Part shown: one piece after another, positions 1,860 through 42,529 of the stretch
Numbering within the stretch: the stretch's first letter is position 1
Layout of the letters: each line of letters opens with the position of its first letter
Assembly: GCF_016903815.1 (NCBI RefSeq)
Contig: NZ_CP069973.1
Direction: 5' to 3' (one strand)
DNA: 64,000 bases
Origin: Escherichia coli
Lineage (GTDB): Bacteria; Pseudomonadota; Gammaproteobacteria; Enterobacterales; Enterobacteriaceae
The notes under the pieces: model-generated
Told to the model about the DNA's origin: nothing
Databases searched by the model: none
What the model saw: only the letters and a program-made list of their open reading frames with translations
Translations under genes and position numbers: made by a program

Positions 1860-1933
1860 TGGAGCGGGCGAAGGGAATCGAACCCTCGTATAGAGCTTGG
1901 GAAGCTCTCGTTCTACCATTGAACTACGCCCGC
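1860..1933 (-). tRNA. glyU: tRNA-Gly (anticodon CCC), glyU
   Basis: Reverse complement reads GCGGGCGTAGTTCAATGGTAGAACGAGAGCTTCCCAAGCTCTATACGAGGGTTCGATTCCCTTCGCCCGCTCCA: cloverleaf, CCC anticodon, encoded CCA. Confidence 0.93.
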
Positions 1934-27975: not shown

Positions 27976-28371
<396 letters not shown>

Positions 28372-28412
28372 CACTTTTCGGTTTACTGTGGTAGAGTAAC
28401 CGTGAAGACAAA

Positions 28413-28596
28413 ATTTCTCTGAGATGTTCGCAAGCGGGCCAGTCCCCTGAGCCGATATTTCATACCACAAGAATGTGGCGCTCCGCGGTTGGTGAGCATG
28501 CTCGGTCCGTCCGAGAAGCCTTAAAACTGCGACGACACATTCACCTTGAACCAAGGGTTCAAGGGTTACAGCCTGCGGCGGCATCTCGGAGATTCC
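28413..28596 (+). ncRNA. ssrS: 6S RNA (SsrS), RNA polymerase sigma70 holoenzyme regulator
   Basis: ATTTCTCTGAGATGTTCGCAAGCGGGCCAGTCCCCTGAGCCGATATTTCATACC...GGCATCTCGGAGATTCCC matches recalled 6S RNA; 3' end +/- 3 nt. Confidence 0.88.
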
Positions 28597-28670
28597 CTTC
28601 TTATCTGGCACCAGCCATGACGCAACTACCAGAACTCCCACTGATATTATCCCGACAAGAAATCCGCAAA

Positions 28671-29219
28671 ATGATTCGGCAACGTCGTCGTGCGTTAACG
28701 CCGGAACAACAGCAGGAAATGGGTCAACAAGCCGCTACCCGGATGATGACTTATCCCCCGGTGGTGATGGCACATACGGTCGCTGTATTCCTCTCTTTTG
28801 ATGGCGAACTCGACACCCAGCCACTCATAGAACAACTCTGGCGCGCCGGTAAGCGCGTATATCTTCCAGTTTTGCATCCCTTTAGTGCCGGTAATTTGCT
28901 GTTCCTGAATTACCATCCGCAAAGCGAACTGGTGATGAACAGGTTGAAGATCCATGAGCCAAAATTGGATGTGCGTGACGTGCTCCCCCTTTCCCGATTA
29001 GACGTCCTGATCACCCCCCTGGTCGCCTTTGATGAGTACGGTCAGCGCCTGGGAATGGGCGGAGGTTTTTATGATCGGACCTTACAAAACTGGCAGCACT
29101 ATAAAATGCAACCGGTGGGTTATGCGCATGATTGTCAGTTGGTGGAAAAACTCCCCGTTGAAGAGTGGGATATCCCACTGCCTGCGGTGGTTACACCGTC
29201 GAAAGTCTGGGAGTGGTAA
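28671..29219 (+). CDS. ygfA: 5-formyltetrahydrofolate cyclo-ligase (YgfA/Fau); start at MIRQRRRALTP, co-transcribed downstream of ssrS
   Basis: 182-aa protein with conserved GMGGGFYDR motif; the 248-aa ORF extension overlaps the 6S RNA gene. Confidence 0.88.
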   Translation: MIRQRRRALTPEQQQEMGQQAATRMMTYPPVVMAHTVAVFLSFDGELDTQPLIEQLWRAGKRVYLPVLHPFSAGNLLFLNYHPQSELVMNRLKIHEPKLDVRDVLPLSRLDVLITPLVAFDEYGQRLGMGGGFYDRTLQNWQHYKMQPVGYAHDCQLVEKLPVEEWDIPLPAVVTPSKVWEW

Positions 29220-29277
29220 GGGCGACACACCTGCATCGCCCTGATTGACATCGTTGATTCTTTGACCTAATTTAGTG

Positions 29278-29418
29278 AGTAAGGGTAAGGGAGGATTGCT
29301 CCTCCCCTGAGACTGACTGTTAATAAGCGCTGAAACTTATGAGTAACAGTACAATCAGTATGATGACAAGTCGCATCATAACCCTTCTCCTTCAAGCCCT
29401 CGCTTCGGTGAGGGCTTT
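29278..29418 (+). ncRNA. sibC: SibC antisense sRNA (type I antitoxin RNA), approximate ends
   Basis: Fully antisense to ibsC; ends in hairpin GCCCTCGCTTCGGTGAGGGC; 5' end estimated from recalled ~140-nt length. Confidence 0.6.
29320..29379 (-). CDS. ibsC: Type I toxin IbsC, 19-aa hydrophobic membrane peptide MMRLVIILIVLLLISFSAY
   Basis: Minus-strand ATGATGCGACTTGTCATCATACTGATTGTACTGTTACTCATAAGTTTCAGCGCTTATTAA; AAGGAG 9 nt upstream; in ygfA-serA spacer. Confidence 0.8.
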   Translation of the reverse strand: MMRLVIILIVLLLISFSAY

Positions 29419-29607
29419 ACCGTTACAGCCCCATGCTGCCCTGCCATCGTAAATCCCCATTAAATAAACACAACGCATTGATCTGACTTTGATTTATTTT
29501 CTGGAGCAGACTCGCAAAGTAGAATGCGCAACGCGGCAACGGTGTGGAGAAGGGATAAAAAAACGGGCAAGTCAGTGACCTGCCCGTTGATTTTCAGAGA
29601 AGGGGAA

Positions 29608-42431: not shown

Positions 42432-42529
42432 TGCCGGATGCGGCGTGAACGCCTTATCCGGCCTACAAAAACCTGCAAATTCAATATATTGCAGGATACG
42501 TGTAGGCCTGATAAGCGTAGCGCATCAGG
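42432..42529. repeat. BIME: two inverted REP units with central spacer, mscS-fbaA intergenic
   Basis: GCCGGATGCGGCGTGAACGCCTTATCCGGCCTAC ... GTAGGCCTGATAAGCGTAGCGCATCAGGC. Confidence 0.8.

What the first reader, a model, noticed from the sequence alone, without database searches (positions are those of the whole stretch)
28413..29219. 6S RNA gene directly upstream of ygfA, overlapped by a misleading long ORF
Seen: the 6S RNA sequence occupies 28413-28596; the 248-aa ORF-track entry at 28473-29219 runs through it, whereas the real ygfA start is at 28671. Established: ssrS and ygfA are co-transcribed and 6S is processed from the precursor. Automated longest-ORF calling would mask the ncRNA.
Basis: partly seen in the sequence, partly recalled or inferred. 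Interest (0 to 1): 0.25.

Follow-up and report, generated by a model that had tools for sequence, protein, structure and literature searches.

The report
E. coli 6S RNA gene and fau

Summary
The window is E. coli chromosome (100% identical to several strains). The Rfam 6S model matches 28413-28596 full-length at 139.8 bits (cut-off 46.4), exactly the stated coordinates. The 248-aa ORF 28473-29219 exists.

Its 5' part, inside 6S, is not coding:
- In 68 of 75 Enterobacteriaceae sequences that phase has TGA at 28530; only Escherichia has CGA.
- That base pairs with 28485 in a 6S helix, and the change is half of a compensatory A-U to G-C swap.
- The third codon position is the least variable.
- The fau frame falls in all three phases relative to 6S.

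The claim that ygfA starts at 28671 matches the curated K-12 record. It is contradicted by PGAP, which starts at 28617 for 200 aa, and by comparison across species:
- The 28617 ATG aligns in all 77 loci, whereas 28671 is ATG in 11 of 77.
- 28620-28670 shows coding periodicity.
- Pfam/TIGRFAM models and solved homologues begin upstream of 28671.

This is a known locus of low interest; the useful output is the start-codon correction.

The parts
28153..28181 (+). Candidate distal promoter P2 of ssrS (TTGCAA-17 nt-TAGAGT), inside zapA
   Evidence: Read directly from the sequence. It scores 8 of 12 matches, so it fell below the threshold of the scan. It predicts a start near 28189, which is -224 from the mature 5' end. 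That agrees with the P2 start I recall from Kim and Lee 2004; the paper is not held, so this is my own knowledge and unverified here. [quoted passage not shown]
28368..28397 (+). Proximal promoter P1 of ssrS: ATGACA, 18-nt spacer, TG-extended TAGAGT
   Evidence: Found by the promoter scan. The motif TTTGAAT(A/G)ACACTT...TGGTAGAGT is conserved across about 25 genera. It predicts a start near 28404, 9 nt before the mature 5' end, which is consistent with a short leader removed by RNase E/G (PMC12152304; the -9 position is from memory).
28413..28596 (+). ssrS, mature 6S RNA (183-184 nt)
   Evidence: Rfam RF00013 at 139.8 bits, full-length. PGAP and K-12 annotations agree. Identity across 75 Enterobacteriaceae loci is 91-100%. 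The consensus fold has 61 pairs, 5 of them with compensatory double changes.
28437..28456 (+). 6S nt 25-44: template for product RNA (pRNA) synthesis, which starts opposite U44 (28456)
   Evidence: The reverse complement reads AUCGGCUCAGGGGACUGGCC, which is the E. coli pRNA sequence as I recall it (established knowledge, not tested here). These columns are invariant in all 37 distinct sequences. The role of pRNA is described in PMC3299989.
28473..28616 (+). Spurious 5' part of the 248-aa ORF (48 codons; 124 nt inside 6S plus the 20-nt spacer)
   Evidence: TGA at 28530 in 68 of 75 sequences when read in this phase; the frame is open only in Escherichia. Codon-position differences are 0.051/0.044/0.022, so the third position is the least variable. 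The 6S-to-fau phase is 0, 1 or 2 in 28, 24 and 25 loci. There is no Shine-Dalgarno sequence.
28485..28530 (+). Base pair 6S nt 73-118, whose compensatory change opens the ORF in Escherichia
   Evidence: A-U in 67 sequences, G-C in the 7 Escherichia sequences, G-U in 1. The same result comes from fold_alignment: AU 34, GC 2, GU 1 among distinct sequences. At 28530 the change is T to C, turning TGA into CGA.
28597..28616 (+). Spacer between 6S and fau; pyrimidine-rich, with no Shine-Dalgarno sequence
   Evidence: Its length is 15-29 nt in most genera and about 100-125 nt in Klebsiella and Raoultella. Composition is C 42%, T 34%, A 17%, G 8%. Best anti-SD duplex is -1.5 kcal/mol here, with a median of +0.3 across 77 loci.
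28580..28677 (+). C-rich, G-poor stretch (C 32-35%, G 14-17%, C/G above 2); inferred Rho utilisation site
   Evidence: Sliding 78-nt composition. [quoted passage not shown] 2011). Assigning this stretch as the rut site is my inference.
28617..29219 (+). fau (ygfA), 5-formyltetrahydrofolate cyclo-ligase, 200 aa; preferred start at 28617
   Evidence: This is the PGAP start. The ATG aligns in 77 of 77 loci with the N-terminus 'MT..SRQxIR'. PF01812 and TIGR02727 match end to end from residue 13, and NF007661 covers positions 2-198 of 198. Solved homologues align from residues 12-14. Coding periodicity is present in codons 2-18. The start is retained in L067, where 6S has been replaced by other DNA.
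28671..28673 (+). Internal Met19 codon; the curated K-12 and UniProt start (182-aa form)
   Evidence: K-12 record NC_000913.3. This codon is ATG in only 11 of 77 loci and otherwise encodes Leu, Ile, Phe, Gln, Val, His, Thr and others. Starting here removes model positions 1-7 of PF01812 and TIGR02727.

Best explanation
The region is the E. coli ssrS-fau (ygfA) transcription unit.

6S RNA (28413-28596) is transcribed from a conserved extended -10 promoter just upstream (P1, 28368-28397), and probably also from a distal promoter inside zapA. Its 5' leader is trimmed by RNase E/G and its 3' trailer by exonucleases. The mature RNA mimics an open promoter, sequesters the sigma-70 RNA polymerase holoenzyme in stationary phase, and is released when the polymerase copies it into a short product RNA.

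Most transcripts end by Rho-dependent termination shortly after 6S, probably loaded on the C-rich, G-poor stretch at 28580-28677. Read-through transcripts carry fau.

fau most likely starts at the ATG at 28617, only 20 nt after the 6S 3' end and without a Shine-Dalgarno sequence, giving a 200-aa 5-formyltetrahydrofolate cyclo-ligase. It probably does not start at 28671.

The 248-aa ORF from 28473 is an accident confined to Escherichia. A structure-preserving A-U to G-C swap in a 6S helix changed an in-frame TGA to CGA at 28530 and so joined an ATG inside 6S to the fau frame.

Shown here: the identity and boundaries of 6S, the absence of coding signal inside it, the origin of the open frame, and the conservation and coding signature of 28617-28670. 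Taken from the literature: co-transcription, processing, Rho termination, and RNA polymerase binding. Inferred: the rut assignment, the P2 position, and use of 28617 in vivo.
For: 6S RNA:
- Rfam match at 139.8 bits, full-length.
- Annotated ssrS at the same bases.
- 61-pair consensus fold with 5 compensatory pairs.

Spurious ORF:
- The frame is open through 6S only in the Escherichia loci. All other genera have in-frame stops inside 6S, and the 6S-to-fau phases are spread 28/24/25.
- TGA at 28530 in 68 of 75 sequences.
- Pair 28485-28530 is AU 67, GC 7, GU 1.
- Codon-position differences are 0.051/0.044/0.022.

Start at 28617:
- PGAP uses it.
- It is the only in-frame start available in most genera.
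- All N-termini align with it.
- The ATG is present in 77 of 77 loci, against 11 of 77 for 28671.
- Differences by codon position are 0.235/0.119/0.526 in codons 2-18 and 0.230/0.136/0.599 in codons 19-40.
- The distance from the ATG to the RQxIR motif is only 30 or 36 nt, while the spacer varies from 15 to 29 nt.
- PF01812 and TIGR02727 begin at residue 13 of the 200-aa form, and their scores fall from 163.0 to 154.7 and from 179.7 to 171.3 bits for the 182-aa form.
- PDB homologues 1ydm and 1sou align from their residue 3 to query residues 13-14.
- L067 has lost the adjacent 6S but keeps 'MT...SRQQIRQ', with its ATG overlapping the stop of an unrelated upstream ORF.

Transcription and processing: PMC2848244, PMC3299989, PMC12152304, PMC7641849.
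Against: - The curated K-12 record and UniProt 5FCL_ECOLI use 28671 (182 aa). I could not find why, so an experimental basis cannot be excluded.
- No translation-initiation profiling or N-terminal peptide data for fau could be reached.
- Neither start has a Shine-Dalgarno sequence, so sequence context does not discriminate between them.
- Escherichia has a Met at 28671 that most genera lack, so a lineage-specific second start is possible.
[quoted passage not shown] 2011; Lee et al. 2013) are not held. Their details here come second-hand or from memory.
Confidence: 0.85

Rival explanations
1. fau starts at 28671, as in the curated K-12 record (182 aa). On this reading 28617-28670 is untranslated leader in E. 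coli, and the first reader's coordinate is right.
For: NC_000913.3 annotates fau at 3056241-3056789, which is window 28671-29219. The 182-aa form is UniProt 5FCL_ECOLI and is widely deposited. It still passes all family cut-offs.
Against: The 28671 codon is not ATG in 66 of 77 related loci, and those loci have no other start downstream of the conserved ATG. 28620-28670 evolves like coding sequence, and its length changes only in multiples of 3. The 182-aa form removes 7 conserved positions of the family's first helix. PGAP rejects this start.
Confidence: 0.07
2. Both ATGs are used in Escherichia. 28617 gives the ancestral 200-aa enzyme, and the lineage-specific Met19 (28671) gives a shorter second proteoform.
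For: Escherichia and a few Citrobacter and Pseudocitrobacter loci have an ATG at the 28671 position. Both starts lack a Shine-Dalgarno sequence, so neither is clearly favoured. In-frame internal starts are documented genome-wide in E. coli (bioRxiv 10.1101/520783).
Against: There is no direct evidence. Met is one of many hydrophobic residues tolerated at that position, so the ATG may simply be a sense codon. The truncated form would lack part of the conserved N-terminal helix.
Confidence: 0.07
3. The 248-aa ORF is genuinely translated from 28473, so that the 6S sequence is dual-function (both RNA and coding).
For: The ORF is open and starts with ATG in all Escherichia loci. It has been deposited as a protein many times.
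Against: The frame is closed by TGA in 68 of 75 related sequences, and it is opened by a change explained by RNA pairing. The codon-position pattern is the reverse of a coding one. The phase relative to fau is not conserved. There is no Shine-Dalgarno sequence, and the ATG sits within the folded 6S molecule. Residues 1-48 match no family model: in the 248-aa form NF007661 begins at residue 52 and PF01812/TIGR02727 at residue 61.
Confidence: 0.01

Closest known systems
E. coli K-12 ssrS-fau (ygfA) operon, b2911-b2912
   Same: The gene order is the same: ygfB(-), zapA, ssrS, fau, sibC/ibsC, serA(-). The 6S sequence is 100% identical, and the region is 99.2% identical overall. The literature describes co-transcription, two promoters, RNase E/G and exonuclease processing, and Rho-dependent termination within ygfA.
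   Different: Nothing biological differs. The only difference is in annotation: the curated K-12 fau start is 28671 (182 aa), whereas PGAP and the comparative evidence favour 28617 (200 aa). The window strain has Ile10 where K-12 has Thr10 in the 200-aa form.
Rfam RF00013 (6S / SsrS RNA)
   Same: Full-length match far above the gathering score. It has a long closing stem, a central bubble and an internal stem, with covariation.
   Different: None; this is the founding member of the family.
5-formyltetrahydrofolate cyclo-ligase family (PF01812, TIGR02727, NF007661 PRK10333)
   Same: End-to-end matches above the curated cut-offs. The equivalog model NF007661 is 198 positions long, the length of the enterobacterial proteins. 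Solved homologues include 2jcb, 1ydm, 1sou and 3hxt.
   Different: The 182-aa annotation truncates the first 7 model positions, and the 248-aa annotation adds 48 residues that match nothing.
Bacillus subtilis 6S-1 and 6S-2 RNAs
   Same: They have the same function as RNA polymerase-binding RNAs processed from precursors (PMC10578484).
   Different: Processing depends on RNase J1 (PMC10578484). As far as I recall there is no link to a 5-FCL gene (own knowledge). Not examined here.

Membership tests
6S RNA (Rfam RF00013) | Covariance-model score above the curated gathering threshold over the whole model | tested here: met
   139.8 bits against 46.4, model positions 1-187 of 187, E 2.2e-28.
6S RNA (Rfam RF00013) | Extended rod-like secondary structure with a large central bubble, maintained by selection | tested here: met
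   The consensus fold of 37 distinct sequences has 61 pairs, 5 of them with compensatory double changes, and very few broken cells. Pairs 73-118, 74-117 and 78-113 covary.
6S RNA (Rfam RF00013) | Conserved gammaproteobacterial synteny zapA-ssrS-(fau) | tested here: met
   zapA lies at 28042-28371 and fau directly downstream. 6S lies upstream of fau in 78 of the 80 related loci. One exception is truncated (L071) and one is rearranged (L067). The literature agrees.
6S RNA (Rfam RF00013) | Binds the sigma-70 RNA polymerase holoenzyme and templates pRNA synthesis | not testable with these tools
   The sequence is identical to K-12 6S, for which this has been shown (PMC3299989). The template stretch 28437-28456 is invariant.
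5-formyltetrahydrofolate cyclo-ligase (PF01812 / TIGR02727 / NF007661) | Profile scores above the curated cut-offs | tested here: met
   For the 200-aa form: PF01812 163.0 bits (cut-off 27), TIGR02727 179.7 (cut-off 84.9), NF007661 446.2 (cut-off 343).
5-formyltetrahydrofolate cyclo-ligase (PF01812 / TIGR02727 / NF007661) | Complete domain including the N-terminal helix (model position 1 onward) | tested here: met
   Met for the start at 28617: model positions 1-186 of 186 and 1-182 of 182, beginning at residue 13. Not met for the start at 28671, where the models begin at position 8.
5-formyltetrahydrofolate cyclo-ligase (PF01812 / TIGR02727 / NF007661) | ATP-dependent conversion of 5-formyl-THF to 5,10-methenyl-THF | not testable with these tools
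   The activity of E. coli YgfA is reported in the literature (own knowledge; the role is described in PMC7641849).

The most novel reading that the evidence does not exclude
Because the conserved, Shine-Dalgarno-less fau start codon lies only 15-29 nt after the 6S 3' end, 3' trimming of 6S from a Rho-terminated transcript would destroy the fau initiation region. Translation of fau from 28617 would in turn cover the C-rich stretch and block Rho loading. 6S maturation and Fau synthesis could therefore be mutually exclusive fates of one transcript. Ribosome loading at 28617 would act as the switch, and this would be missed by anyone using the 28671 annotation. Escherichia's extra Met19 might add a second, truncated proteoform.
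Probability: 0.12. Interest if true: 0.35.

Novelty: already known. Interest (0 to 1): 0.1.

Why it matters
Biologically, nothing here is new. ssrS-ygfA is one of the oldest characterised bacterial non-coding RNA loci.

The practical value is for annotation:
- It is a clean, documented case of a long ORF swallowing a non-coding RNA gene. The 248-aa protein sits in GenBank under many accessions.
- The ORF exists only because of a compensatory RNA substitution, which makes it a good teaching or benchmark example for gene callers.
- The reference K-12 and UniProt start of fau (182 aa) is probably 18 codons too short. Constructs, knock-outs and reporter fusions designed from it would remove part of the enzyme's first helix, and would misplace the translation start relative to the 6S 3' end and the Rho termination region.

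Tried and rejected
1. **Leader-trailer pairing in the 6S precursor** (purine-rich GAAGA leader against the conserved CUUCUU trailer). The energy gain is only -1.5 kcal/mol, weaker than shuffled leaders and trailers (mean -2.8, sd 2.0), and the pairing is absent from the consensus fold of 56 sequences. Rejected.

2. **Shine-Dalgarno strength as a way to choose between starts.** None of 28473, 28617 or 28671 has one (0.3, -1.5 and -0.7 kcal/mol, against -7.8 for zapA). Uninformative.

3. **Experimental start-site data.** The Ribo-RET preprint does not mention ygfA or fau in its text, and its supplementary tables are not held.

4. **Primary papers on ssrS promoters and termination** (PMC3012964, PMC3887979, PMC534622). 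They are not held, so details such as the -9 and -224 starts and termination about 90 nt downstream rest on my memory and are marked as such.

5. **The intrinsic-terminator-like site at 29046-29061 inside fau**. The number of such sites is within the shuffle expectation and this one lies in coding sequence, so I did not pursue it.

6. **The 106-aa antisense ORF 28321-28641 (-)**, which also covers 6S. It is a mechanical ORF over a conserved RNA gene, and I saw no reason to consider it coding.

Full report
**Identity of the region.** The window is Escherichia coli chromosome. Bases 28000-29450 are 100% identical to several complete genomes and match 5425 of 5426 E. coli assemblies. In those genomes the gene order is ygfB(-), zapA, ssrS, fau, ibsC(-), serA(-). 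The curated K-12 record has the same order and adds sibC.

**Checking the observation.** The Rfam scan of the whole window returns 6S RNA (RF00013) at 28413-28596 on the + strand. The score is 139.8 bits against a gathering score of 46.4, with E 2.2e-28 and the model covered from position 1 to 187. PGAP annotates ssrS at the same bases in an identical genome, and the curated K-12 record gives 183 nt, one base shorter at the 3' end. The ORF list confirms an ATG-initiated ORF of 248 aa at 28473..29219. That frame contains two further ATGs, at 28617 and 28671. That is the curated K-12 start (182 aa), but PGAP uses 28617 (200 aa), both in the identical strain and in a K-12 derivative.

**Is any of 28473-28670 coding?** I fetched 80 loci encoding relatives of Fau from one genome per species. 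All are Enterobacteriaceae, from about 25 genera.

Part one, the stretch inside 6S:
- The fau frame is open back through 6S only in the Escherichia loci. In every other genus an in-frame stop lies inside 6S.
- The distance from the 6S 3' end to the fau ATG varies from 15 to 29 nt (about 100-125 nt in Klebsiella and Raoultella). It falls into the three phases 28, 24 and 25 times, so no reading frame is conserved across the junction.
- Read in the E. coli phase, 68 of 75 6S sequences have TGA at 28530-28532 and only the 7 Escherichia sequences have CGA.
- Base 28530 (6S nt 118) pairs with 28485 (nt 73). The pair is A-U in 67 sequences, G-C in the 7 Escherichia sequences and G-U in one. fold_alignment gives the same picture (AU 34, GC 2, GU 1 among distinct sequences), and finds 61 pairs overall, 5 of them with compensatory double changes. 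The long ORF is therefore a by-product of a structure-preserving substitution in the RNA.
- Differences from E. coli by codon position across 28473-28596 are 0.051/0.044/0.022, so the third position is the least variable, the opposite of a coding pattern.
- Residues 1-48 of the 248-aa product match no protein family: NF007661 begins at residue 52 and PF01812/TIGR02727 at residue 61.

Part two, 28617-28670:
- In most genera the ATG equivalent to 28617 is the only in-frame start between the upstream stop and the conserved domain.
- All 77 N-termini align as MT(Q/L)..(E/D)...SRQxIR(Q/K)xIRQRRR.
- The ATG column is ATG in 77 of 77. The codon at 28671 is ATG in 11 of 77 and otherwise encodes Leu, Ile, Phe, Gln, Val, His, Thr and others.
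- Differences by codon position in codons 2-18 are 0.235/0.119/0.526, indistinguishable from codons 19-40 (0.230/0.136/0.599).
- The distance from the ATG to the RQxIR motif is 30 nt in 69 loci and 36 nt in 8, always a multiple of three, in contrast to the free length variation of the spacer just upstream.
- PF01812 and TIGR02727 align from model position 1 at residue 13 of the 200-aa form. The 182-aa form begins at model position 8 and scores about 8 bits lower. The equivalog model NF007661 is 198 positions long.
- Solved homologues align from query residues 12-14, which correspond to residue 3 of the B. subtilis (1ydm) and Aquifex (1sou) chains. The segment removed by a 28671 start belongs to the family's first helix.
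- A natural experiment points the same way. In Superficieibacter electus (L067) no 6S lies within 1.5 kb upstream. The flank instead holds a transposase-like fragment and an unrelated 325-aa ORF. fau still begins MTLIQPSDTPLSRQQIRQ, and its ATG overlaps the stop of that upstream ORF.

The 6S finding stands, and the start coordinate should be 28617.

**Does longest-ORF calling really mask the RNA?** Yes. Exact-sequence look-up finds the 248-aa protein of this strain and of K-12 in public collections. Accessions include AJE57453.1, CBJ02606.1 and ABV07306.1 (named '5,10-methenyltetrahydrofolate synthetase', E. coli HS), on at least 1000 contigs. The 200-aa and 182-aa forms are there as well. Current PGAP avoids the error.

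**How the locus works.** Just upstream of 6S the scan finds ATGACA, an 18-nt spacer and a TG-extended TAGAGT at 28368-28397. This block is conserved across genera as TTTGAAT(A/G)ACACTT...TGGTAGAGT. It predicts a start near 28404, 9 nt before the mature 5' end.

A weaker TTGCAA-17-TAGAGT lies at 28153-28181 inside zapA and predicts a start near 28189, or -224 (read). These two positions match what I recall of the P1 and P2 starts in Kim and Lee 2004, but that paper is not held, so the match rests on memory.

The held literature states the following:
- 6S is transcribed together with ygfA, and the arrangement is conserved in gammaproteobacteria (PMC2848244; PMC7641849).
- There are two tandem promoters, and maturation removes 5' and 3' extensions by RNase E/G and exonucleases (PMC12152304).
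[quoted passage not shown] 2011).

Consistent with the last point, 28580-28677 is the most C-rich, G-poor stretch of the region (C 32-35%, G 14-17%, C/G above 2), and the spacer across genera is 42% C and 8% G. Assigning it as the rut site is my inference.

None of the candidate start codons has a Shine-Dalgarno sequence, and the conserved ATG lacks one in all 77 loci (median anti-SD duplex +0.3 kcal/mol, against -7.8 for zapA). Fau initiation is therefore probably weak and independent of a Shine-Dalgarno sequence.

**What remains open.** I found no experimental mapping of the Fau N-terminus, and I do not know why the curated K-12 record uses 28671. A second, Escherichia-specific initiation at Met19 cannot be excluded.

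**Verdict.** One coordinate needs correcting (fau starts at 28617, not 28671), and there is now a clear explanation of why the misleading ORF exists only in Escherichia. Interest is low.

Noticed in passing
window 29245-29395 (+), with ibsC at about 29320-29379 (-): A SibC antitoxin RNA (Rfam RF00113, 133.8 bits against 56) lies directly downstream of fau, with the IbsC toxin gene antisense to it. In some E. coli strains the match here splits into two pieces and a second Ibs-family toxin is annotated, so the sib/ibs unit is duplicated in those strains (hits H31-H38).
   Followed up: partly
L038-L040, L043, L046, L052 (Klebsiella, Raoultella, Enterobacter sp. 10-1), between the 6S 3' end and the fau ATG: These loci carry an extra 80-105 nt between 6S and fau, giving a spacer of 99-125 nt instead of 15-29 nt. 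The insert shares the motif TGTATTA(A/C)ACT and has an in-frame stop just before the conserved ATG. It might hold an independent fau promoter or a terminator. This was not tested.
   Followed up: partly
L067 1-1430 (Superficieibacter electus BP-1): This is the only full-length locus without 6S next to fau; Rfam finds nothing there. The upstream DNA holds a transposase-like fragment and a 325-aa ORF whose stop overlaps the fau ATG. The 6S gene must lie elsewhere in that genome or have been lost. A congener (L049) has the normal arrangement.
   Followed up: partly
window 42467-42509 (+): Rfam match to the ES036 (CssrF) sRNA, 47.3 bits against a gathering score of 37.6.
   Followed up: no
window 1863-1933 (-): A tRNA gene, Rfam RF00005 at 71.6 bits. 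Its anticodon was not determined.
   Followed up: no
window 28597-28616 and the equivalent spacer in 77 loci: The fau leader is pyrimidine-rich and always begins C(C)TTCT or CTCTCT directly after the 6S 3' end. It lacks a Shine-Dalgarno sequence in every genus. This is unusual for an enzyme gene and suggests that expression is kept low or coupled to another process.
   Followed up: partly
window 28321-28641 (-): A 106-aa GTG-initiated antisense ORF also spans the whole 6S gene. It is a second mechanical ORF that a naive gene caller could report.
   Followed up: no
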